Below are positions 319 to 54,388 of a stretch of 64,000 nt of DNA, one piece after another. Numbering within the stretch: the first letter of the stretch is position 1; each line of letters opens with the position of its first letter. The translations under genes were made by a program, and so were the position numbers. Source of the stretch: a virus; IMG/VR virus record IMGVR_UViG_3300028840_003497, positions 96,001 through 160,000 of that record. One strand, given 5' to 3'. The notes under the pieces are model-generated. The model did not search any database. It was not told the origin of the DNA and worked only from the letters and a program-made list of their open reading frames with translations.

Positions 319-693
319 TGGAGATGCCCGGGATCGAACCGGGGTCCATTGAAGCTTCATATGCGAATCGTCACGTGCATAGTCTGCCTTCGTTCAACCG
401 GGGACTTCCAGCAGACGAGTCATCCCAAGCTTACCCCGCTTTTGTTGTTCTCAGGAGGCCGCGAGGTGCCTCCACTGAGTTTGTCCGTGTAATTATGCCC
501 GCCTAGCTACTCAGACTCCTCACTAGGTGGACACCCATCAAGCAGCCTTGGCGACTGGAGTCACTTTGGCCTTCGGGAAGGGAATTACATTATTGGTAAT
601 TCATTTTTGAAAATCCTTTTTAACCCGCCGAACTTCCAAGGCGGGACACGCATCACACACTCCGTTCATCAATGTCGAAACCATATCATCCCC
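319..693 (-). ncRNA. ssrA: tmRNA
   Basis: 5' GGGGATGATATGGTTTCGAC and 3' GGACCCCGGTTCGATCCCGGGCATCTCCA give an Ala-type acceptor with G3.U70. Internal tag frame 597-538 reads TNNVIPFPKAKVTPVAKAA-stop. Confidence 0.95.
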
Positions 694-9600: not shown

Positions 9601-12204
9601 TCAGAACGGCACTTCCTCACTATCCTCGTACTCATCCGTGTCGTCAGGGATCTCGTCATATTTCATCGAGTCGAAATCCCAGTCAGACAAAACCACATCT
9701 TTCGAAATCTGTCCTCGTCGGAGCTTGAGAGCTTTGAATTTCAAAACCTTGTCATCCCTGTCATCCTTCGACTGCTCCAACGCAAAGACAGCATGAGCAT
9801 CCTGGCCAATCTCGTCAGCAAGCGCAATCGTTCCCAGACGAGCACCTCCCCCTTTTTTCTCGCTCAACTCCGCTGTTCTGTTCTGTTGGGCAAATCCACA
9901 ACAAGCAAATCCAAGCCGTTTAGCAGCACTCTTCATCCACTCCAGAGCACCAATTGCTCTCTCTCGCCTGTCGCCACTGATTTTCAGATCATAGATAGAG
10001 TCTACGGCGACCATATCTGGCTGACACGCACGGATAGCTGCTTCGATGCCTTTTGGTGAAAGATCATCATCAGAATCCATGATCCACAGGTTCTTCAACG
10101 AGCGACTTTTTACAATAGTATTCTCAAGACTTGGAATAGCGAAATCCGATAACTGCCCATGAATAAGATCCTTGTAACTGACGTTCGCTTCGACCACGAA
10201 GAACCTCTCAGCAATCTCCTCTTTGCTCATCTCCGGAGACACGATGAGCGTACGATAACCTTCGGACCATGCGTGCCGGGCGGCAATAACCGCCACGAAT
10301 GTGTTGTGAACAACCATATCATTTGCCACGAACGCATGCCCATCCATAACCGTTAAATCGAACACCCTTTGGACACCGTCATATTTTATCGATTCAACTC
10401 TATCCCAATGATTAACTGTCAAATGTCTCAAGTGTTCTGCGTCAAACGCATCCAGGAAAGCTTCAAATATTCTTCTACTTACAGTTTTTCGTCTATACAA
10501 CTTATTAACGCTGATTCGAGTTGTCATACCTAAGACTGACGACATCGAATCATACCTAGCAACTCTTGGAGCATCAGGAAAACTATTCACTATTCTAAGC
10601 AACTCTTCCTTCAATACAGGTGTCACCGGTATATTGTCAATATTGGGATTAGTAGCATTCTCAAGCAACCCAACCTTGCTGCTTTTACCACCGACTATCG
10701 GGATATTGTTTTTGAACGCATCGTGGGATGTCGAGTAGATCCTGTACACCCAAGAATCAAACATCTCCCCGTTTAGCCTGACTGCTTTATACCGCACTCT
10801 CCCCTGTATCCCGAAGCGCAAGAACAATCGCTGCAACTGATCAATAAGCGTTTTAGATGCCAATCCCACTTCAGCAGTACAATGATCACGTCTGCCATTC
10901 TTGCCCTTGACAAGTGGAAATGACCCATCACAACTCCAAAATGCCCCGAGAAATTTCGCCAATGACTCATTATCATACTGAAATACTCTGTCTGGAATAG
11001 TCTTATTTTTAGACAATGATCTATCACACCCCCAACTATCCCACTTTTCCCAAAAGCTACGACCATTAATCCTGTAACGACCATCATCCTTTCCACGCGT
11101 CATCGGAACAAGTTCACTACCATATATTCGACAAAACCTTTGCACATGACCTATAATTACATTGTCAGCTTTTGTGAAGGTTGGTAGATCTTGCGTCACC
11201 CCACCATCTGCCAACATCATACCTATCAGCATGGATTCTTCATCTCTTACACTAATAGATTCAGTTGGCTCTGGAATCAATCCAGCAGACTCAACATAAT
11301 CTCCAACAACAAGTTCATCGGTTCTTTTCCATCCGTCAACAGTCATCATCGGATGCTCTGGCGTTTGAGACATCTCACGCCCACTATACAATCCAACCCT
11401 TAAACATTCCTTTGTTCCCATATCCAACCACGCATCTGGCGTAACAGGAACAATAGAGCCATCTGATTTTCTGGTAAGCACACAATCTTTGTCCTTTACA
11501 ATCTGTCCAATCGTCTTATACTTCCCCGTAGTTGAAATGTAGGATAATGTATCCATGTGTAGGCATTTGCCAACTCCGGGGCGGGCCACAAACATGGTCA
11601 GTGTCTTTGGCCACATCCCAGCTGTCATATGATCCAGTGTCGGCCATGGAAGCGGCACCCCACGATACCCTCCGGCAACCTTCTTGTACATATCCATTAC
11701 GCCGTCACCAAGAGCGGACATGGATTTTGGCATGCGCGTGCGCGCTAAATATTGGGAAGCCTCCACAATGGCCGTGACACCATTGGAAATCTCTTCCGGA
11801 TTCTCCTTTGTAAACGCGCTGGAAACCACATCCTGAGACACGTAGATGACATGACGAATCGCAGCAGCCTCACGAACAATTCCAGCGTAATGATCAACAT
11901 TAGCCACCGTGGCAACTGCATCAGTAAGATTCGCCAGAGCTATCCCCCCCCCGATCTTCTCTAGGTCGCCATTCTTTTTCAGGCGCTCCCCGAGAGTAAC
12001 GTGATCGACAGGCATGCCATCTGCATCCAAGGATGTCATCGCCTTGAAGATTCTGCGATGTGCTTCTACATAAAAATCCGCCTGCGTAATAACACCCTCG
12101 ATAACCCGAAGTGAATTATTATCCAGCAATATGGACCCCAGAACAGACACCTCGGCTTCATAATTGTAAGGCGGCACTCTCCCTCCAACATCAACCTCTT
12201 TCAA
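9601..12204 (-). CDS. dnaB: Replicative DNA helicase with intein
   Basis: N-terminal PPYNYEAEVSVLGSIL...DFYVEAHRRIF; ARPGVGK|T Walker A; SPEMS; IGQDA. Confidence 0.93.
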   Translation of the reverse strand: MKEVDVGGRVPPYNYEAEVSVLGSILLDNNSLRVIEGVITQADFYVEAHRRIFKAMTSLDADGMPVDHVTLGERLKKNGDLEKIGGGIALANLTDAVATVANVDHYAGIVREAAAIRHVIYVSQDVVSSAFTKENPEEISNGVTAIVEASQYLARTRMPKSMSALGDGVMDMYKKVAGGYRGVPLPWPTLDHMTAGMWPKTLTMFVARPGVGKCLHMDTLSYISTTGKYKTIGQIVKDKDCVLTRKSDGSIVPVTPDAWLDMGTKECLRVGLYSGREMSQTPEHPMMTVDGWKRTDELVVGDYVESAGLIPEPTESISVRDEESMLIGMMLADGGVTQDLPTFTKADNVIIGHVQRFCRIYGSELVPMTRGKDDGRYRINGRSFWEKWDSWGCDRSLSKNKTIPDRVFQYDNESLAKFLGAFWSCDGSFPLVKGKNGRRDHCTAEVGLASKTLIDQLQRLFLRFGIQGRVRYKAVRLNGEMFDSWVYRIYSTSHDAFKNNIPIVGGKSSKVGLLENATNPNIDNIPVTPVLKEELLRIVNSFPDAPRVARYDSMSSVLGMTTRISVNKLYRRKTVSRRIFEAFLDAFDAEHLRHLTVNHWDRVESIKYDGVQRVFDLTVMDGHAFVANDMVVHNTFVAVIAARHAWSEGYRTLIVSPEMSKEEIAERFFVVEANVSYKDLIHGQLSDFAIPSLENTIVKSRSLKNLWIMDSDDDLSPKGIEAAIRACQPDMVAVDSIYDLKISGDRRERAIGALEWMKSAAKRLGFACCGFAQQNRTAELSEKKGGGARLGTIALADEIGQDAHAVFALEQSKDDRDDKVLKFKALKLRRGQISKDVVLSDWDFDSMKYDEIPDDTDEYEDSEEVPF
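10303..11565 (-). mobile_element. Intein (421 aa) with LAGLIDADG endonuclease in the DnaB P-loop
   Basis: Starts CLHMDT, TPEHP block B, IGMMLADG/LGAFWSCDG, ends VVHN|T. Confidence 0.92.
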
Positions 12205-43267: not shown

Positions 43268-43708
43268 TCATGATCCAGATATAATCTTGTCCCTGTGTAC
43301 TGTATACTCCGGGTCATCATCGCCTGAAGCCAAGCCCAGATTGGCCTCGGCCCACTCCAGAGCTTTTTCCAGCCGCTTAATCCTAGTCTCCCTATTAGCC
43401 AACATGATCTTCATGCTGGCAATACGATGAATATCAGTCGGTAACAACAGACCATACTCACGCTTGGCTGCATCTGTAAGCCGAAGAAACCTCGATCGAA
43501 CAACTGACTTGTCTGCAGGGATTACATACCCCTTCTTCTCAAAAGCCTTCACATAATCGTGTACCGCATTTGTCGACGAGATACCCAGGGCCTTCCCCAT
43601 CTCCCGCCACGTAGGAGGAACCTCATGCTTTTGCATAAAATAGACAATAAAATCCATCATCAACCTCTGCCTGTCAGTCAACTGGCCTAACGCCTTCGAT
43701 CCATTCAT
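43268..43708 (-). CDS. LexA-like DNA-binding-domain repressor (no peptidase domain)
   Basis: LTDRQ...FI......PPT.REMG.ALGISSTNAV...KKGY. Confidence 0.85.
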   Translation of the reverse strand: MNGSKALGQLTDRQRLMMDFIVYFMQKHEVPPTWREMGKALGISSTNAVHDYVKAFEKKGYVIPADKSVVRSRFLRLTDAAKREYGLLLPTDIHRIASMKIMLANRETRIKRLEKALEWAEANLGLASGDDDPEYTVHRDKIISGS

Positions 43709-44060
43709 TTTAGTCCTCCAAAATTCGCACACTTGCTATGGCATCATAGTTACTGTCTTCTTCTAGAGTATCCCAGTATTTCCAACTATCCTCTGGACCG
43801 CCGGGAATGAGTTCTACTATCTCACCCCAGCCATCATTGTTTTTATCAATCTCCAACGGCAAACTGGCAGGCTCATACACCTCTCGCGCCTGTTCTACTC
43901 CCCAGCATTGACCAGTCCACCACTGTCCATTCGTGTTTTCGATTGCTACTTTCATTTTCTAACCTCTCTTCCGGCATCGCGCCGGACATCTTTAATTGCT
44001 GTCAGTATGTTAAGCTATCGCACAGGTTTGTCAACTTGTTTCCTCGATAAAAATAAAAGG

Positions 44061-44089
44061 TTGACTAACGGGGCTGTAGGCTTTAACGT
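44061..44089 (+). promoter_or_regulatory. sigma70-type promoter of the plus-strand island
   Basis: TTGACT-N17-TAACGT, divergent from a minus-strand TTGACA at about 44029-44034. Confidence 0.65.
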
Positions 44090-44136
44090 ACCCATCAGGC
44101 AAAACGATACTCGGGAAGATCCCGGGAGGAGATTTC

Positions 44137-45594
44137 ATGAAAAACACTGACGAACAACAGGCCATCATCAACTCAACACCGTCCACTGGGGGATCGCTTC
44201 TAGTCACGGCCTTCGCCGGTACCGGGAAGACCTTCACCCTCCAGAAGTACGCGGAGGAGCGTCCTGCGGACAAGATTCTATACGCCGCGTTCAATAAAGC
44301 GATCCAACTGGAAGCCGAGCGGAAAATGCCGATGAACGTGACCAGCAGGACAACGCACTCACTGGCCTATCGCGCGTGCGCGCTACCCTATCAGAAGGCC
44401 GGGCTCCTGCGCGGATACATCCCGCTATGGGGAGTTGCCAAAATACTGGAGACCAACATCGTGATCGCAAACTTCGCGCTCTCCGTAGTCAATAACTTCA
44501 TCGCATCGCCAGATCCGAAGATCACAAGCGCCCACATCGGGCAGGAGATCCACGATTACTACGAACAGGCTGATCACATGCCACCATTTGTAGAGATGGC
44601 GAGAATGATCTGGGACGACATGAAGAGCCTTGGCCAGCGAAGTCTCCCGATGACACACGACGGGTACCTGAAACTCTTCCAGCTCTCCGGCCCCGATCTA
44701 CGCTTCGACTACATCCTGCTCGACGAGGCCCAGGACACCACGCCATGCGTCTGGGATATTATGACCAACCAGAGCTGCCGGAAAATAGTCGTGGGCGATG
44801 AACACCAAGCGATCTACTCCTGGCGAGGTGCCACTGATGCCTTGAAACTCGTCGAAGATGCCGAACACCTTTATCTCACCCAGAGCTTTCGATTCGGACC
44901 CGAGATCGCAGCACTGGCCACCACCATGCTGCAGCGATTCAGAGGAGAGAAAAACAAACTCCTTGGATTGGAGTCGATCCCTACAAAGATCCATACAGGA
45001 GGCCGCCCGGAGAAAAGAACCATGATCTGCCGGGGCAACATGCAAATATTCCGATCCTCCGCCACCGAGTGCCAATTTGGAGAGAAGAGTCTGGGTTTCG
45101 TAGGAGGAGACCACCGTAATTACCGCTTCCAGACCGTACTCGACGCTTACCACGTCTTCGATGATCAGCCCGAAATGGCCAAGGATGCACTCATCAAATC
45201 CTTCGAGACATTCGAAGATCTCCTGGAGTTTGCTGGCAAAACCAAGAACAATGAATTAGAAGGAGCCTGCCAACTGGTAGAAGAGTACGGTGCAAGGATC
45301 CCCATCATATTCCACGAAGTAAAGAATAGAGACGTTGGTGCTAAGTTTGGAGACCTAGCGTTTGCCACCGGCCACAAGGCCAAGGGGATGGAATTCCCGG
45401 TCGTCGAAATTGGATCAGACTTCAGCGCCCGGATCGAGGCCCACCAGAAGAACCCGAAAGAGGGCATCATGAATTCCCACGAGATGAACCTGCTATACGT
45501 AGCCATCACCAGGGCCACAGAGCACCTATACCTCTCACCCAGTATTGTGGACTTCATTCAGCACGGAACCATCAAAAAGGAGGGACAGCTATGA
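44137..45594 (+). CDS. UvrD/Rep-family (SF1) helicase
   Basis: AFAGTGKT, TTHSLA, LLDEAQD, VGDEHQAIY, SFRFG, HKAKGMEF, YVAITRA. Confidence 0.93.
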   Translation: MKNTDEQQAIINSTPSTGGSLLVTAFAGTGKTFTLQKYAEERPADKILYAAFNKAIQLEAERKMPMNVTSRTTHSLAYRACALPYQKAGLLRGYIPLWGVAKILETNIVIANFALSVVNNFIASPDPKITSAHIGQEIHDYYEQADHMPPFVEMARMIWDDMKSLGQRSLPMTHDGYLKLFQLSGPDLRFDYILLDEAQDTTPCVWDIMTNQSCRKIVVGDEHQAIYSWRGATDALKLVEDAEHLYLTQSFRFGPEIAALATTMLQRFRGEKNKLLGLESIPTKIHTGGRPEKRTMICRGNMQIFRSSATECQFGEKSLGFVGGDHRNYRFQTVLDAYHVFDDQPEMAKDALIKSFETFEDLLEFAGKTKNNELEGACQLVEEYGARIPIIFHEVKNRDVGAKFGDLAFATGHKAKGMEFPVVEIGSDFSARIEAHQKNPKEGIMNSHEMNLLYVAITRATEHLYLSPSIVDFIQHGTIKKEGQL

Positions 45595-45884
45595 GTGCAG
45601 ACAACTGGGCGCTTTGCCCACGGTGCAAAGAGAGGGACATCGAGAGACTCCGCACTGCGGTCGAGATGGTCAAGAAATCGTACGGCAAAGTCCCCGAGGA
45701 AGAGTACATGCAGATGAAGGAGGATCTCGCCAAGGCAGATCCGGGAAACGCCACCGACCCCACACTGCGCGAGGACTACGAAATCGGAATCGGGAAGGAC
45801 GGAATGTTCTCGATAACCTTCCGGGCAAGCTGCAAATGCGGCTTCAGGTTCACGTTCTCGTTCAAGGAGAAGGTGTTAACATGA
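45591..45884 (+). CDS. Small zinc-binding protein
   Basis: CPRC...CKCG; ATGA overlap with the helicase stop. Confidence 0.7.
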   Translation: MSADNWALCPRCKERDIERLRTAVEMVKKSYGKVPEEEYMQMKEDLAKADPGNATDPTLREDYEIGIGKDGMFSITFRASCKCGFRFTFSFKEKVLT

Positions 45885-45963
45885 AAACTTGATATGATTC
45901 GCCTTTAGAGCGATCATGTCTTTAGATGCGGCGCAAGATGCGTCACTGTTGAAAGGATGCAAG

Positions 45964-46647
45964 ATGTACAGAGTAAATGTAGAGTTGAACGGTTGCACGG
46001 ATGTTGGAGGCAGCGACCTCCTGATGCATAACGACAATTTGACGTGGCGGGATGAAATGGATTTGTGGTTACAAGAACCCTTAAACAAGAATTCCAGCAG
46101 GGCCGGGGATGATCGTTCTCCAGCATGGCGCTGGCTCGGTTACTGCTACCACGACGGCGAAGTCGTAGGAATCCCAAGCGACAACCTGATGACCTGTATG
46201 CGGGGCGGAGCAACAATGATCAACGTCCCAGGCAAAGGCAAGAAGACATATAAAGCTCAGAGCCAGAGCGGACTCTTGGTTAACGAGATTCTGTGGCCAA
46301 TCACAGTCAATGACGGCCAGATCATCAAATGGGAAGATATTGCTTCCTTGGCAAATGAAGAGGACTTTAATAAACACGTTGCCCGCGCCAACGAGCTAGG
46401 GATCGAATTGTTCGTCAAATCGGTGAGGATCGGGCAGTCCAAGAACATTCGAGTGCGCCCGAGGTTCAAAAACTGGAAAGCGAAAGGATCAATAACGGTC
46501 CTGGACGACACCATCACAATCGATCTATTGAAACGATTTCTGGAATGTTCTGGAATGTTATGCGGACTCTGCGATTGGAGACCGTCATCGCCGAGATCAC
46601 CTGGACCGTTCGGAAAATTCGTCGCCACGGTTACGAAGGCTAAATAG
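45964..46647 (+). CDS. RAMP/Cas7-like protein associated with the GGY-NN array
   Basis: N-terminal strand ending LLMH, IPSDNL..CMRGGA (compare the RAMP IPGSSLKG..R motif), RVRPRF, terminal Gly-rich loop GMLCGLCDWRP...GPFGKF. Fold inferred, not searched. Confidence 0.65.
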   Translation: MYRVNVELNGCTDVGGSDLLMHNDNLTWRDEMDLWLQEPLNKNSSRAGDDRSPAWRWLGYCYHDGEVVGIPSDNLMTCMRGGATMINVPGKGKKTYKAQSQSGLLVNEILWPITVNDGQIIKWEDIASLANEEDFNKHVARANELGIELFVKSVRIGQSKNIRVRPRFKNWKAKGSITVLDDTITIDLLKRFLECSGMLCGLCDWRPSSPRSPGPFGKFVATVTKAK

Positions 46648-46657
46648 GTAGACGCAT

Positions 46658-46973
46658 GGATCTGGGTAAGGCTAGGCCAGGCTTGGCGTGGCATGGCAAG
46701 GCGAGGATCGTGGCAAGGCGAGGCATGGCGCGGCAAGGCGAGGCGCGGCGAGGAACGTGGCAAGGCGAGGCATGGCAAGGCGGGGCTGGGCAAGGCGAGG
46801 ATCGTGGTAAGGCTAGGCGTGGCTTGGCAAGGCTGGGCATGGCGAGGAACAGGGTAAGGTGTGGCAAGGCAAGGCGGGGCAAGGCATGGCGAGGAACATG
46901 GCAAGGCAAGGCAAGGCGCGGCATGGATCGTGGTAAGGCAAGGCTAGGCGTGGCCGGGCAAGGCGAGGAACGT
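46658..46973 (+). repeat. Phased GGY-NN pentamer array: 7 units delimited by GGAWC-NN
   Basis: Delimiters at 46658, 46705, 46752, 46799, 46846, 46893, 46925, 46967; units hold 8,8,8,8,8,5,7 pentamers. Confidence 0.95.
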
Positions 46974-47015
46974 GGAAAACATCATGGAGTACAACAGTAT
47001 CAACGGAGGAGTACA

Positions 47016-47501
47016 ATGAACGAAAACAAGAAAGATGGCCTGTTTTTCGGAGGAGTCCCCACCGATGGAGACATCCGTCTCCTGGAAAATGAGTACGGAA
47101 TTCCTGAAATCGGCAAGATTATACCCTACGAGGAGGTGGCTGCCGTCATCAAGTATGACAAGGATTCGTCACGGTTTAAAACAGTGACACAGCGCTGGCG
47201 AAAGAAGATCGAGCGCGACCACAACGTCATCATTGGCACCGAACGCGGGATCGGTTTTGTCGCACTCGACAACGCCTCTCGTGTTGATCTGGGATCCGAC
47301 AAATTCAAATACGGCATGAAATCTGTTCGACGCGCGAACAAGGTCGTCTCTTCAACCGACCACTCAGATCTTACTGATGATCAAGTTCAAGTCGCCCACC
47401 ACGTACGACACGTCACCGCCGCACTGGTCGGAGCGGCCAGAATGGAGTCGAAAAAACTTCGGGCTCAACTTCCCATGCCTGTCCAGCAGAACAGAAAGTA
47501 G
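47016..47501 (+). CDS. Hypothetical accessory protein downstream of the array
   Basis: ATG 47016 behind SD GGAGGAG; 161 aa, basic. Confidence 0.75.
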   Translation: MNENKKDGLFFGGVPTDGDIRLLENEYGIPEIGKIIPYEEVAAVIKYDKDSSRFKTVTQRWRKKIERDHNVIIGTERGIGFVALDNASRVDLGSDKFKYGMKSVRRANKVVSSTDHSDLTDDQVQVAHHVRHVTAALVGAARMESKKLRAQLPMPVQQNRK

Positions 47502-47577
47502 AACAAATCCCCGAAGTAGTAGGAGGGGTCAGATTATAATTATCATGGATTTAATCGAAAAAGGAAAGATCGCACGA

Positions 47578-48201
47578 TCAGAATCGAAGTCTTGCCTCCT
47601 TCGTCTTTTTGATCCCTATACGAACAGCCTCATCCGCATCGTCCAACACCTCAGCAAGAAGAGCGATATTGCGATGCAGCCTGTCGCGGTAGTCGAGTTG
47701 ATCCTCGGTGGCAGACTGCCAGTCCCCTTTGATCCCGCACTCGATCTGAACTAACCTTGCAACATTCGCAATCTCACGATGGAACACAGATTTGTTCTTC
47801 GACCTCCGGTAGAGAGCCCCGCACATTAGATTATAACTGTCCCCGCTATCGTTCCTGTACCGAATCAAATGATCGTACAACCACTGGTAGACTTCGATCT
47901 TCAACTTCGGACTGATCGCCAAGGCCATGTCGATAAACAACATCGGATGAACCCAGGTGTGCTTCCCGCGTCCGCGACCGGCGATCTTGACTTCTCCAAA
48001 CCTATCCTCCAACTCCCTGATAAACTCCTTCGTTCCTTCGAGCTGAAACCAATGAGACATCTTAAACGGAGACATCCCGTTCATGATGCGCCACTTATTC
48101 CCGGCACGAACCAAATCAGTCGCGCTGAACATCTCCGACTTGCTCTTTTGGGATATCTCCTCCCCGAAAAGCTGTCGCCTCATAATTACCTCTGTTTTCA
48201 T
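47578..48201 (-). CDS. KilA-N domain DNA-binding protein
   Basis: FSATDL, TKEFI.EL, GRG...HTWVHP...D.A..ISP. Confidence 0.85.
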   Translation of the reverse strand: MKTEVIMRRQLFGEEISQKSKSEMFSATDLVRAGNKWRIMNGMSPFKMSHWFQLEGTKEFIRELEDRFGEVKIAGRGRGKHTWVHPMLFIDMALAISPKLKIEVYQWLYDHLIRYRNDSGDSYNLMCGALYRRSKNKSVFHREIANVARLVQIECGIKGDWQSATEDQLDYRDRLHRNIALLAEVLDDADEAVRIGIKKTKEARLRF

Positions 48202-48302
48202 GATATTAACTCCTTTTGAAATGGCGTCTTTTTTAGAACAATAAAGGAGCTTTTATAAAAGTCAACACAATAACGGCGCTAATCTCGCCATTTCCAAGAT
48301 AG

Positions 48303-48389
48303 TGGGCCGGGAAGGATTCGAACCTCCGAAGGGACTAGCCCGCCGGATTTACAATCCGGTGCCTTTGAACCGCTTGGCGATACCGACCC
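48303..48389 (-). tRNA. tRNA-Tyr (GTA)
   Basis: CCGGA-TTGTAAA-TCCGG; long variable arm. Confidence 0.9.
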
Positions 48390-48390
48390 A

Positions 48391-48482
48391 TGGTGCGCGG
48401 GGCGGGATTCGAACCCGCCCTGTCTCTGAAGTGTTACCCCGGGGCCTGAACCCGGTGCCTTTACCAGCTTGGCTACCCGCGC
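48391..48482 (-). tRNA. tRNA-Leu (CAG)
   Basis: CCGGG-TTCAGGC-CCCGG; long variable region; CCA encoded. Confidence 0.88.
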
Positions 48483-48483
48483 A

Positions 48484-48557
48484 TGGTGATCCCGACTGGA
48501 GTCGACCCAGTGTCTCCGGCTCTTCAAGCCAGCGCTAAACCCCTCAGCTACAAGACC
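48484..48557 (-). tRNA. tRNA-Phe (GAA)
   Basis: CTGGC-TTGAAGA-GCCGG; atypical T-loop GTCGACT; CCA encoded. Confidence 0.8.
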
Positions 48558-48558
48558 A

Positions 48559-48641
48559 TGGACGGATCGAAGCACATCTGCGCATTTTACATTGCCGTCG
48601 AACTGAATCGTCGGTTGCTGCCGTGTGAAATCCGATCCGTC
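48559..48641 (-). ncRNA. Candidate 83-nt small RNA within the tRNA cluster
   Basis: Terminal stem GACGGATCGG/TCGATCCGTC, sequence ends in CCA; no cloverleaf. Confidence 0.45.
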
Positions 48642-48644
48642 TTG

Positions 48645-48718
48645 TGCGCGAGCTGGGAGTCGAACCCAGAACCACAGACCCCTCAAGCCTGCTCCTCTTC
48701 CAGTTGGGATACTCGCGC
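48645..48718 (-). tRNA. tRNA-Leu (GAG), short variable loop
   Basis: CAGGC-TTGAGGG-GTCTG. Confidence 0.85.
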
Positions 48719-48724
48719 ATATAT

Positions 48725-48797
48725 TACGACTGAGTGGATTCGAACCACCAACTTTCGGTTCTTGAAACCGACGCCTCTTCCGTTGGGCCACAGTCGC
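48725..48797 (-). tRNA. tRNA-Leu (CAA), short variable loop
   Basis: TCGGT-TTCAAGA-ACCGA. Confidence 0.88.
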
Positions 48798-48798
48798 T

Positions 48799-48874
48799 TG
48801 GTGCGCCCCCTCGGATTCGAACCGAGCCTGAACCGGGCTTAAACCGGATCCCTCTTCCACTGGGGTAGGGGCGC
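48799..48874 (-). tRNA. tRNA-Leu (TAA), short variable loop
   Basis: CCGG-TTTAAGC-CCGG; CCA encoded. Confidence 0.85.
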
Positions 48875-48880
48875 ATATAG

Positions 48881-48956
48881 CAAGTGCGGAAGGATTCGAA
48901 CCTTCAACCTTTGGATTTGGAATCCAACGCTCTGACCAAATTGGAGCCACGCACCC
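48881..48956 (-). tRNA. tRNA-Trp (CCA)
   Basis: TTGGA-TTCCAAA-TCCAA. Confidence 0.9.
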
Positions 48957-48961
48957 ATAAG

Positions 48962-49045
48962 CGGAGGTAGAAAGATTCGAACTTTCAAGCCAGTTTCCCG
49001 ACCACAGTTTAGCAAACTGCTGCGTTACCATTACGCTATACCTCC
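48962..49045 (-). tRNA. tRNA-Ser (GCT)
   Basis: GCAGT-TTGCTAA-ACTGT; long variable arm; G73. Confidence 0.9.
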
Positions 49046-49049
49046 CTTG

Positions 49050-49122
49050 AGTCTCGGGCCGGGTTCGAACCGGCGTCCTTCTTGGGTTGCAACCAAGTGC
49101 CTCGCCTCTTGGCTACCGAGAC
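49050..49122 (-). tRNA. tRNA-Cys (GCA)
   Basis: CTTGG-TTGCAAC-CCAAG; U73. Confidence 0.9.
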
Positions 49123-49196
49123 GTTTGCGGAGAGAGGGAACCGATGGATTTATCCAGTTAAGGCTAATCACCATTTTGCTGAGAACCATCTCCATT

Positions 49197-50138
49197 CTAT
49201 TGAACCCCTTTCTTTAACCATTTCCTTATAGCATTATCAGAAACCCCATACTTCCTCCCAGCCGCACAATATCCATTCTTATCAACAAACTTTTTAACTT
49301 CATCAAGTATCGGTCTTGGGACTTTCCGCTGCGCAACACTAGCAGCACGTCTTCTCTTTTCACTTTTCAAATCAGAACGATAACACTCTACAGAACAATA
49401 CTTTTGCCCAGTTTTGTAAGGGAAAGCATTGCTACACATAATACACGAAACAATCTTTCTTTTTCTTTCTGATAAACGATCAGCAATAATCAAACCCTGT
49501 TCCCGCACATACCTCCTAACTGCAGCCTGATTCCTTGGACTGTTTTTACGTCCAAGTTTATCAAGAACCTCCCCAATAGAAGAACTGTTTTTAACAATCA
49601 ATCTAAGAATGTCATCAGTATACATGTCAATCCATGACTCTCTTTTTCTTCTTCCTTTATGAACCAATGCTCTGTTTTTGAAATTTTTAACTCCATAATT
49701 ACTAGTTTGAGAATGACAATTAGGACAAAGAAACCTCAAATTCCCTTTGATATTATTAAACGGATCCCCGTCAATGTGATCAACTTGAAGAGTGATCTCA
49801 TTACCCATCCACTCCGATAATCCACAACATGCACAAACATATTCTACGCCTGATTCAATAAGAGCCCTTCGCAAAGCATACGCATGCTCTCGGGAACCGT
49901 CTTTTCTGGATAAAACATCAGAAGGACTACGCTTATTGACAGAAATCCTGCCTTTGTTCCAACCCCCTCTTCCAGAAGCAAAATGAGAAAAATCAACACC
50001 ATGTCTAACTGCCATTCTCTTCGCATGGGCTTGAGAAGAACCATGAGTAGAACTTTCAAAAATCCTACAGACATCAGCCCATGTGGCCGATTCAGCCACA
50101 GCCTTTTCCAGTCTCTCTTTCGTATATTTCGATTCCAA
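49197..50138 (-). CDS. Free-standing HNH homing endonuclease
   Basis: CACCG...LQVDHIDGD..NN...NLRFLCPNCHSQT; AT-rich; TTG start behind GGAGG. Confidence 0.9.
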   Translation of the reverse strand: MESKYTKERLEKAVAESATWADVCRIFESSTHGSSQAHAKRMAVRHGVDFSHFASGRGGWNKGRISVNKRSPSDVLSRKDGSREHAYALRRALIESGVEYVCACCGLSEWMGNEITLQVDHIDGDPFNNIKGNLRFLCPNCHSQTSNYGVKNFKNRALVHKGRRKRESWIDMYTDDILRLIVKNSSSIGEVLDKLGRKNSPRNQAAVRRYVREQGLIIADRLSERKRKIVSCIMCSNAFPYKTGQKYCSVECYRSDLKSEKRRRAASVAQRKVPRPILDEVKKFVDKNGYCAAGRKYGVSDNAIRKWLKKGVQ

Positions 50139-53597: not shown

Positions 53598-54049
53598 CCT
53601 CTTGCCGCCTTTTGAATAGCCATCCGGACATTGAACCGATCAGCATACATTTCCACCGAAATCTTATCTTCCAGCGAGACACTGTCGTCCGCCCACATTC
53701 GCTCGAATAAAAGTTTCACACAATTGTCGTCGATACTGTTCGGATCTTCGATGTCACAATCCTCTACGAATTCCATGACTAAACGGCGAACTAGGACCAC
53801 AAAACCATTCCCCATCATCTCTTCTCCTTCTTGAGATGATCCCTGAGAACATCCCCAAGACTCGTCTTCACGACAGTCTTCTTTACTCTCCTGCGAAGAC
53901 GCTCCCGCTTGTCGTCTTTCTCAAACTCGCGGTCCAGAATCTTTTGAAACTCGTCATCCTCAGATACTTTTTTTAACATTCTCTTCACCTCCTGCCGAGA
54001 TCGTCCCGGCCATCATGGTGTACTATAAAGCTTTGTGCGCGTTTGTCAA

Positions 54050-54388
54050 CTAGGAAATTCGGGCGACGTAACGGGCGTACTTGTAACCCTCGGTGCTGAT
54101 GAGATAGTGCTTGTCGCTCGGATCCACGACGACGAAGGACATGCTGGGGGGCTCGCGGTCGAAGTTCGCAGCGGCAGGAGCTTTCGGCCACTCGGCATAG
54201 ACCTCCTGCCATGGGACACGTTTCAGCTTGGAGACCATATTCTTGTCCATCTTTTCGAGTTTATTCGGATCGATCTTCGGGGCGTGGCCCCATCTCGTGA
54301 CCTTGCTTCCCATCTTGTCGAGGATGCTGTCCGGCAACTGTCCACGAATAAGCGCCTCATCCATTTTTCTCTCGATTAACTTCTTCAT
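54050..54388 (-). CDS. Putative head-internal protein (MKKLIERK family)
   Basis: Shared N-terminal motif. Confidence 0.6.
   Translation of the reverse strand: MKKLIERKMDEALIRGQLPDSILDKMGSKVTRWGHAPKIDPNKLEKMDKNMVSKLKRVPWQEVYAEWPKAPAAANFDREPPSMSFVVVDPSDKHYLISTEGYKYARYVARIS

What the first reader, a model, noticed from the sequence alone, without database searches (positions are those of the whole stretch)
44061..47501. The array locus sits in the only plus-strand island, together with a UvrD-like helicase and a Zn protein
Seen: every other credible gene in 64 kb is on the minus strand. These four genes and the array lie behind one divergent TTGACT-N17-TAACGT promoter. Knowledge: type IV CRISPR systems pair a Cas7 filament with a helicase (DinG) and lack a Cas3-type nuclease. 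Inference: the SF1 helicase and the 97-aa and 161-aa proteins may be effectors or processing factors, or the helicase may be an unrelated neighbour.
Basis: partly seen in the sequence, partly recalled or inferred. Interest (0 to 1): 0.7.

Follow-up and report, generated by a model that had tools for sequence, protein, structure and literature searches.

The report
Phage VIPR system beside unrelated helicase
The plus-strand island holds a VIPR system, a CRISPR-related RNA-guided DNA-silencing module first described in 2026 preprints, sitting next to a helicase and a small cysteine-rich protein that show no conserved link to it, so this is a new example of a known kind.

Summary
The island is real. 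In the whole 176-kb phage genome, the helicase, the 243-aa gene and the 161-aa gene are almost the only plus-strand ORFs with a positive coding score.

The "array" (46665-46971) is not a CRISPR array. It has seven back-to-back units, typically eight GGYNN pentamers followed by GGAWC-NN. The 243-aa gene (true start probably 45964, 227 aa) is a Vipr protein. It has a Cas7/Csm3-like fold (Z 10-11), and its family profile matches the solved SUSP1 Vipr (PDB 36pp, E 3e-16) with the RNA-contact residues kept. The 161-aa protein is a distant Vap1 homologue with a winged-helix domain. Together they form a VIPR system (bioRxiv 10.64898/2026.04.26.720920).

The helicase link fails from both sides:
- Of 80 related Vipr loci, 0-1 carry an SF1 homologue and none carries the 97-aa protein.
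- Of seven distinct relatives of the helicase (62-81% identity), none has vipr, vap or an array nearby.

The 97-aa protein travels with the helicase, as the closest relative shows. Co-transcription could not be tested, and no natural target was found above shuffled controls. This scan has already met VIPR systems in other genomes. Verdict: new member of a known kind.

The parts
44061..44089 (+).
   Evidence: Present in the sequence. The -10 hexamer matches 3/6 and the motif was not reported by the scan.
44137..45594 (+). SF1 UvrD/Rep/PcrA-like DNA helicase, 485 aa; a neighbour, not part of the VIPR module
   Evidence: PF00580, PF13361 and PF13538; phrog_1967 at 1.6e-82. Relatives at 62-81% identity lack VIPR. 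Homologues occur in 285 phage records.
45591..45884 (+). 97-aa CxxC...CxC protein; its start overlaps the helicase stop by 4 nt (ATGA); it travels with the helicase
   Evidence: No family hit. A 51%-identical homologue lies directly after the 81%-identical helicase in L090. Found in 0 of 80 Vipr loci. Weak homologues in Gordonia and Tsukamurella phages.
45889..45917 (+). Promoter-like TTGATA-N17-GATCAT between the 97-aa gene and vipr
   Evidence: 9/12 matches; the count of sites is not above shuffled expectation.
45964..46647 (+). vipr: single-RRM RAMP (Cas7-like) protein, 227 aa from M at 45964; the ORF could also start at 45916, giving 243 aa
   Evidence: Start inferred from 23 homologues. 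phrog_4652, which is the SUSP1-like Vipr family. AF2 model pLDDT 91.8. Foldseek and VIA top hits are all Cas7-family subunits, mostly Csm3 and type VII Cas7, Z 10-11. The family profile hits PDB 36pp 'SUSP1 Vipr protein' at E 3.3e-16.
46665..46971 (+). vrRNA array: 7 back-to-back units, typically 8 GGYNN pentamers plus GGAWC-NN (47 nt; units 6 and 7 are shorter); 52 GGYNN in all (47 GGC, 5 GGT)
   Evidence: The same punctuation (RA-GGAAC-NN) recurs across 80 related loci.
47016..47501 (+). vap1-like accessory gene, 161 aa, GGAGGAG ribosome-binding site upstream; winged-helix domain plus long helical hairpin
   Evidence: phrog_5926 at 7e-5, which is the SUSP1-like Vap1 family (5e-75). hhalign against SUSP1-like Vap1: E 2.3e-5, probability 76%. 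AF2 model pLDDT 92.1. Weak wHTH fold matches. Adjacent to Vipr in 56 of 80 loci.

Best explanation
Window 45964-47501 is a complete VIPR (Viral Interference Programmable Repeat) cassette in a 176-kb uncultivated phage. It comprises vipr, a compact array of seven vrRNA units, and a vap1-like winged-helix gene.

The mechanism below is inferred by homology to the characterised SUSP1 and P. fulva systems; none of it is shown here. The array is transcribed and cut into short vrRNAs. One Vipr protomer binds each GGYNN repeat and forms a helical filament. The GGY bases are flipped out, and the NN dinucleotides pair with double-stranded DNA while skipping every third target base. The bound gene, probably in a competing phage, prophage or satellite, is silenced, with Vap assisting.

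The SF1 helicase and the 97-aa cysteine protein upstream are a separate two-gene unit. That unit already occupied this divergent plus-strand slot in related phages. The VIPR cassette appears to have been inserted downstream of it. The genes may still share a read-through transcript, but they are not a conserved functional set.
For: Identity as VIPR:
- Fold of the 227-aa protein: AF2 pLDDT 91.8. Every leading Foldseek match and all 50 VIA-align rows shown are Cas7-family subunits, Z 10-11 over about 162 residues.
- The profile of 24 homologues hits PDB 36pp 'SUSP1 Vipr protein' at E 3.3e-16.
- SUSP1 contact residues H17, R138, D177 and W178 (from 10.64898/2026.04.26.720927) align to H22, R165, D204 and W205, which are invariant or nearly so.
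- The array has 52 phased GGYNN pentamers on the coding strand.
- The 161-aa protein matches the Vap1 family phrog_5926 and has a wHTH-like fold.
- About 72 of 80 related viral loci carry same-strand GG-pentamer arrays beside the Vipr homologue, and 56 of 80 carry the Vap homologue.
- No self-target in the phage's own genome, as the preprint reports for its systems.

Helicase not linked:
- An SF1 homologue occurs in 1 of 80 Vipr loci (weak, partial); the 97-aa protein in 0 of 80.
- Seven distinct relatives of the helicase (eight loci, L084-L091; 62-81% identity), with up to 7 kb of flank or to the contig end, have no vipr, vap or array.
- Several of them (L084/L085, L087, L089) keep the minus-strand RlaP nucleotidyltransferase next to the plus-strand helicase, as in the window.
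- The closest VIPR relative (Vipr 74%, Vap 77%; L092/L093) has different downstream neighbours.
Against: - No expression data, so vrRNA ends and processing are unknown.
- No natural target was found.
- The units carry only 8 repeats (16 coding bases, the first NN always AA, the last usually GA), below the 9-16 reported for the studied clades. They also lack the roughly 40-nt pseudoknot tail of SUSP1 vrRNAs.
- SUSP1 K33 is not conserved; the window has Q37 there.
- No plus-strand terminator is predicted between the helicase and vap, so co-transcription, and with it some functional coupling, is not excluded.
- The preprint states that VIPR types III-V have helicase or nuclease accessories.
- L092/L093 are cut inside vipr, so what lies upstream of vipr in the closest VIPR relative is unseen.
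Confidence: 0.82

Rival explanations
1. The helicase and the 97-aa protein are lineage-specific accessories of this VIPR system. They would be co-transcribed with it and help DNA unwinding or target clearance, as DinG does in type IV CRISPR and as helicase vaps may do in VIPR types III-V.
For: Same strand, tight spacing, and no predicted plus-strand terminator in 44137-47501. These are the only plus-strand genes in the genome. The preprint mentions helicase vaps. Earlier notes of this scan report DinG-linked VIPRs elsewhere (not checked here).
Against: SF1 homologue in 0-1 of 80 Vipr loci. None of seven distinct close helicase relatives carries VIPR. The helicase already sits on the plus strand next to RlaP in relatives without VIPR. 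The 97-aa gene pairs with the helicase in L090, where the next gene is not vipr. A promoter-like site lies between the 97-aa gene and vipr. This helicase family is common in phages of many kinds (285 records).
Confidence: 0.08
2. The locus is a degenerate or type IV-like CRISPR-Cas system, with the repeats forming a CRISPR array.
For: The Cas7-like fold includes a match to type IV-A3 Csf2, 8s35_E.
Against: There is no repeat-spacer structure. The array is made of phased 5-nt units with a 7-nt punctuation. No other cas-like gene was recognised in the island. The helicase is SF1, not DinG. The PADLOC and NCBIfam libraries gave no hit for the RAMP protein. The protein family matches the solved Vipr by sequence.
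Confidence: 0.01
3. The repeat is not a guide-RNA array. It would be either the coding N-terminal extension of a 281-aa ORF (46656-47501) or a DNA-level element such as iterons or an R-loop origin.
For: The repeat region is open in several frames and is in frame with the 161-aa gene. It is G-rich on the non-template strand. It lies near replication and recombination genes in many phages.
Against: A 5-nt period cannot be kept by selection on a protein. Homologues of the 161-aa protein start at the internal ATG, which has a strong ribosome-binding site. Arrays move freely to positions before, between or after the two genes, yet always stay on their strand. Such arrays are shown experimentally to give Vipr-bound RNAs in SUSP1 and P. 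fulva.
Confidence: 0.02

Closest known systems
VIPR type II systems of Escherichia phage SUSP1 and a Pseudomonas fulva prophage (bioRxiv 10.64898/2026.04.26.720920, 10.64898/2026.04.26.720927, 10.64898/2026.10.15.759431; PDB 36pp)
   Same: Phage-encoded. A single small RAMP protein with the G-loop motif GDWRP and the conserved His and Arg RNA contacts. GGYNN tandem-repeat RNA genes on the same strand. A vap1-family winged-helix accessory gene next to vipr.
   Different: This Vipr is 227 aa rather than about 190-200 aa and is only distantly similar (about 25% identity by tblastn). The vrRNA units are shorter (8 repeats) and abut each other through a 7-nt GGAWC-NN punctuation, instead of each carrying a roughly 40-nt pseudoknot tail. 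All units lie between vipr and vap. SUSP1 K33 is not conserved.
VIPR 'staggered arrays' (fig. S18 of 10.64898/2026.04.26.720920)
   Same: Back-to-back vrRNAs in which the end of one marks the start of the next, going by the figure legend.
   Different: The figure is not held, so the type and the exact punctuation could not be compared. The assignment is tentative.
Class 1 CRISPR backbone subunits (Csm3, type VII Cas7, type IV Csf2)
   Same: RRM core, thumb and glycine-rich loop; Z 10-11. Filament-on-RNA logic.
   Different: No CRISPR repeats or spacers, no Cas5, Cas6 or large subunit, a 5-nt rather than 6-nt register, and a phage rather than a host immune locus.
Type IV CRISPR-DinG, and the helicase-linked VIPRs noted earlier in this scan
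   Same: A RAMP filament lying near a helicase gene.
   Different: Here the helicase is SF1 UvrD/Rep-like, not the SF2 DinG/XPD type, and the adjacency is not conserved in relatives of either gene.

Membership tests
VIPR system | Vipr protein: single-RRM RAMP fold with thumb and glycine-rich loop | tested here: met
   AF2 model pLDDT 91.8. All leading Foldseek and VIA matches are Cas7-family subunits, Z 10-11, rmsd 3.3-3.8 A over about 162 residues. C-terminal G-loop reads G-L-C-DWRPSSPRSPGPFG.
VIPR system | Sequence homology to an experimentally characterised Vipr | tested here: met
   Profile A1 against PDB 36pp_D 'SUSP1 Vipr protein': E 3.3e-16, profile positions 3-214 against chain residues 2-186. 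Both proteins hit phrog_4652.
VIPR system | vrRNA-contact residues (SUSP1 H17, R138, D177, W178; K33 for the skipped base) | tested here: met
   H22, R165, D204 and W205 are invariant or nearly so and align to the four contacts. The K33 equivalent is Q37 and is variable in this clade, so 4 of 5 are kept.
VIPR system | At least 4 tandem YNNGG/GGYNN repeats flanking vipr on the same strand, with GGY conserved and NN hypervariable | tested here: met
   52 GGYNN pentamers (47 GGC, 5 GGT) in 7 units. All 16 dinucleotides are used across the clade. It is the only such array in 176 kb.
VIPR system | Adjacent vap accessory gene | tested here: met
   The 161-aa protein hits phrog_5926 (Vap1 family) at E 7e-5. 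hhalign against SUSP1-like Vap1 gives E 2.3e-5, probability 76%. wHTH-like fold. It co-occurs with Vipr in 56 of 80 loci.
VIPR system | vrRNAs are expressed and form an RNP with Vipr | not testable with these tools
   Needs small-RNA sequencing and a pull-down.
VIPR system | Natural targets that match under the 1-nt skip rule, with no self-target | tested here: inconclusive
   No self-match above shuffled guides. Exact-pattern scans of viral contigs with 5 guides gave 47 to more than 117 hits each, and convergence at up to 2 mismatches did not clearly exceed shuffled controls (110 against 82-106).
VIPR type II, SUSP1 clade | Each vrRNA ends in a conserved tail of about 40 nt with a pseudoknot | tested here: not met
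   Units abut through a 7-nt GGAWC-NN. The locus is therefore filed as VIPR with a vap1-like gene but not as a member of the SUSP1 clade. The paper's type could not be assigned because its figures are not held.
Helicase-associated VIPR (types III-V) or type IV CRISPR-DinG | A helicase gene conserved next to the RAMP gene across the clade | tested here: not met
   An SF1 homologue in 1 of 80 Vipr loci (weak). None of seven distinct helicase relatives has VIPR. An unrelated SF2 ResIII/DEAD helicase occurs within 6 kb in 13 of 80 loci, among recombination genes and at varying positions.
CRISPR-Cas (any type) | Repeat-spacer array plus a cas gene set | tested here: not met
   The array consists of 5-nt phased units. 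PADLOC, NCBIfam and Pfam gave no Cas family hit for the RAMP, 97-aa or 161-aa proteins.

The most novel reading that the evidence does not exclude
In this phage lineage the VIPR cassette was captured into the helicase operon. The SF1 UvrD-like helicase, with its 97-aa cysteine partner, would then act as a newly recruited accessory, for example by stripping or extending the Vipr R-loop triplex. That would be an independent, SF1-based origin of helicase-assisted RAMP targeting. Separately, the 8-repeat units with a 7-nt punctuation may be a minimal vrRNA form with an unknown processing route.
Probability: 0.06. Interest if true: 0.55.

Novelty: new member of a known kind. Interest (0 to 1): 0.27.

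Why it matters
VIPR is a newly described kind of RNA-guided DNA recognition and a proposed ancestor of CRISPR RAMPs. This locus adds a divergent member from a large uncultivated phage, belonging to a clade with at least 713 metagenomic homologues. It has a very compact array format: units of about 47 nt with an RA-GGAAC-NN punctuation that is shared across the clade. For the specific claim under review, the result is a useful negative. Adjacency on the genome's only plus-strand island does not make the helicase part of the system, so it should not be annotated as a VIPR or type IV-like effector.

Tried and rejected
- CRISPR reading: rejected on the anatomy of the array.
- Before the fold result and the paper I considered iterons or an R-loop origin, a CsrA/TRAP-like protein sponge, and a coding repeat. 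I dropped them.
- Target search, own genome with the array masked: best matches 13-14 of 16, no better than shuffled guides.
- Target search, 261 guides from all loci against a 1.1-Mb mini-database: real equals shuffled.
- Target search, exact 1-nt-skip patterns of guides U1-U5 in viral contigs: 110, 68, more than 117, 47 and more than 117 hits. The U1 hits cluster in three unrelated abundant phage families (nozzle protein, DUF2201, T4-like portal). This fits chance plus database redundancy.
- Convergence of two guides on one locus was not clearly above shuffled controls.
- The search for related loci with the helicase in viral contigs found nothing.
- Rfam scan of 43500-49300: only tRNAs, no ribozyme in the array.
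- No terminator-like fold after vap.
- Complex prediction for Vipr plus Vap returned 'no answer'. It counts neither for nor against binding.
- The paper's supplementary files are not held, so the VIPR type could not be assigned.
Full report
**Setting.** The window is bases 96001-160000 of a single 176,267-bp contig. Its features are those of a large phage:
- a nine-tRNA array and a tmRNA;
- DnaB-like and SNF2-like helicases, an HNH endonuclease and a nucleotidyltransferase;
- a LexA-DBD protein and a KilA-N protein flanking the island.

**The observation.** GC skew is negative in every 2-kb bin except 44-48 kb. I trained a codon-usage score on the long ORFs of the genome. Only four plus-strand ORFs of 100 aa or more score positive: 44137-45594, 45916-46647, 46656-47501 and a doubtful 114-aa ORF at 54035-54379. 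Their scores (0.06-0.09) are well below the median for minus-strand genes (0.22). So the island is real and unusual.

The scan reports a leftward promoter-like site at 44034-44007 and a rightward TTGATA-N17-GATCAT at 45889-45917, which lies between the 97-aa gene and the next gene. Neither class of site is more frequent than in shuffles, and no plus-strand terminator is predicted inside the island. Whether there is one transcript or two cannot be decided from sequence.

**The array.** TRF finds periods of 5, 47 and 94 nt at 46664-46975. Parsed in register, the array has seven abutting units, typically eight GG[C/T]NN pentamers followed by GGA[A/T]C plus 2 nt. Units 6 and 7 have five and seven pentamers. 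In all there are 52 GGYNN pentamers (47 GGC, 5 GGT). This is not a repeat-spacer array. It is the only such tract in the genome.

**A conserved module.** A blastn of the region matched only the array, in Mycobacterium phages (for example BobaPhett) and in cyanophage Cy-LDV1. In both, the gene next to the array is a homologue of the window's 243-aa protein and shares a C-terminal G-x-G-DWRPS-x-P motif. The protein has 713 unnamed homologues of about 220 aa. Their alignment places the start at 45964, giving 227 aa, and shows invariant H22, GDDR, RVR163-165 and GDWRP.

Among 80 related loci from viral contigs, about 72 have GG-phased pentamer arrays next to the homologue, essentially always on its strand. 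A homologue of the 161-aa protein is adjacent in 56. The order of genes and arrays varies. Across these loci, 425 pentamer runs most often end in RA-GGAAC-NN before the next run begins.

**Identity.**
- The AF2 model of the 227-aa protein (pLDDT 91.8) matches only Cas7-family backbone subunits: Csm3, type VII Cas7, Cas7-11 domains and type IV Csf2. The best Foldseek E-value is 1e-4, and VIA-align gives Z 10-11 over about 162 residues.
- A literature search found bioRxiv 10.64898/2026.04.26.720920. It describes VIPR systems: a phage-encoded ancestral RAMP (Vipr), vrRNAs made of alternating GGY/NN motifs, and an accessory vap gene. The NN dinucleotides recognise double-stranded DNA while skipping one target base per repeat. 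Natural targets are rival phages and satellites.
- The companion structure paper gives the SUSP1 RNA contacts as H17, R138, D177 and W178.
- The profile of the window's family hits PDB 36pp 'SUSP1 Vipr protein' at E 3.3e-16. In that alignment the four contacts fall on H22, R165, D204 and W205. K33 is not conserved.
- phrog_4652 and phrog_5926 are the Vipr and Vap1 families of SUSP1-like Ounavirinae. The window's proteins hit them at 2.5e-17 and 7e-5.
- The profile of the 161-aa family aligns to SUSP1-like Vap1 (hhalign E 2.3e-5). Its model (pLDDT 92.1) is a winged-helix-like domain followed by a long helical hairpin, with weak matches to PurR, GntR and OmpR DNA-binding domains. This agrees with the paper's description of type II vaps.

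The locus is therefore a VIPR system with a vap1-like gene. It differs from the studied SUSP1 clade in three ways:
- a larger, distant Vipr;
- 8-repeat units, below the 9-16 reported;
- a 7-nt punctuation in place of a roughly 40-nt pseudoknot tail.

The legend of fig. S18 ('staggered arrays') may describe this format, but the figure is not held.

**The helicase question.** The helicase is an SF1 UvrD/Rep/PcrA-like protein of phrog_1967. That family occurs in 285 phage records with many hosts. Its stop overlaps the start of the 97-aa CxxC...CxC gene.

*From the Vipr side.* One of 80 loci has a weak partial SF1 hit, and none has the 97-aa protein. The commonest further neighbour is an unrelated SF2 ResIII/DEAD helicase, in 13 of 80 loci. 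It lies at varying positions among YqaJ, ERF and PDDEXK recombination genes. This reflects the early replication and recombination region where these cassettes sit.

*From the helicase side.* Seven distinct relatives (eight loci, L084-L091) at 62-81% identity have no vipr, vap or array within the DNA available. In L084/L085, L087 and L089 the helicase is again the plus-strand gene beside a minus-strand RlaP nucleotidyltransferase, as in the window. The closest relative, L090, keeps the helicase plus a 51%-identical 97-aa gene, followed by a gene that is not vipr.

*The closest VIPR relative.* L092/L093 (Vipr 74%, Vap 77%) has a different downstream context. Its upstream side is cut inside vipr.

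So the helicase and the 97-aa gene form an older resident pair, and the VIPR cassette is a mobile insertion next to it.

**Targets.** None of the guides matches the phage's own genome better than shuffled guides do, as expected for VIPR. With only 16 specified bases per guide, database scans give chance-level numbers of hits:
- The U1 hits fall in three unrelated abundant phage protein families.
- Five guides show no convergence clearly above shuffled controls.

The rival element and the host remain unknown.

**Verdict.** The island and its contents are real. The RAMP-plus-array idea is right, but it corresponds to a system already published in 2026, and this scan has met that system repeatedly in other genomes. 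The helicase and the 97-aa protein are best read as unrelated neighbours. This is a new member of a known kind, of modest interest.

Noticed in passing
L001:3974-5455 (Mycobacterium phage BobaPhett) and L002:4356-5941 (Cyanophage Cy-LDV1): Both isolates carry VIPR-like modules: a Vipr homologue (BobaPhett gp52; Cy-LDV1 g34) plus GGC-pentamer arrays. The neighbouring gene belongs to a different family, phrog_15946 (gp53; g33), rather than Vap1/phrog_5926, so it may be a second vap family. BobaPhett gp51 is annotated as a CDS inside the array and is probably spurious.
   Followed up: partly
L003-L082 (80 viral contigs): Clade-wide array grammar. Runs of 5-23 GGYNN pentamers (mode 8) mostly end with NN = AA or GA, followed by GGAAC (41%) or GGATC (8%) plus 2 nt, and then the next run starts. 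Arrays occur before, between or after vipr and vap, and some loci have up to four.
   Followed up: partly
L017/L018, L046, L051, L064-L066, L072, L076, L082 and others: An SF2 ResIII/DEAD helicase of about 550 aa lies within 6 kb of vipr on the same strand in 13 of 80 loci, directly after vap in L017/L018. YqaJ, ERF and DUF3799/PDDEXK genes are nearby. I did not resolve whether it is a true vap in a sub-clade or just the phage recombination module.
   Followed up: partly
L084:1929-6812: In a related phage (helicase 62% identical), the genes next to the helicase include a Gad1 (anti-Gabija) homologue and a TnpB/OrfB_IS605 gene. This suggests the slot around the helicase is an accessory or counter-defence hotspot.
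   Followed up: no
window 9601-12204 (-): An 867-aa DnaB-like helicase whose family matches are split (residues 9-212 and 625-861), with an unrelated stretch of about 400 aa between them. This could be an intein or another insertion.
   Followed up: no
window 44137-47501: The island genes have clearly lower codon-usage scores (0.06-0.09) than the genome's minus-strand genes (median 0.22). This fits either opposite-strand mutational bias or recent acquisition.
   Followed up: no
window 54035-54379 (+): The only other plus-strand ORF of 100 aa or more in the genome with a positive coding score (114 aa). I did not examine it.
   Followed up: no
window 48302-49122 (-) and 319-693 (-): A tight array of nine tRNA genes (Tyr, 4 Leu, Phe, Trp, Ser, Cys) with an 86-nt gap at 48558-48643, and a phage-borne tmRNA.
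   Followed up: no
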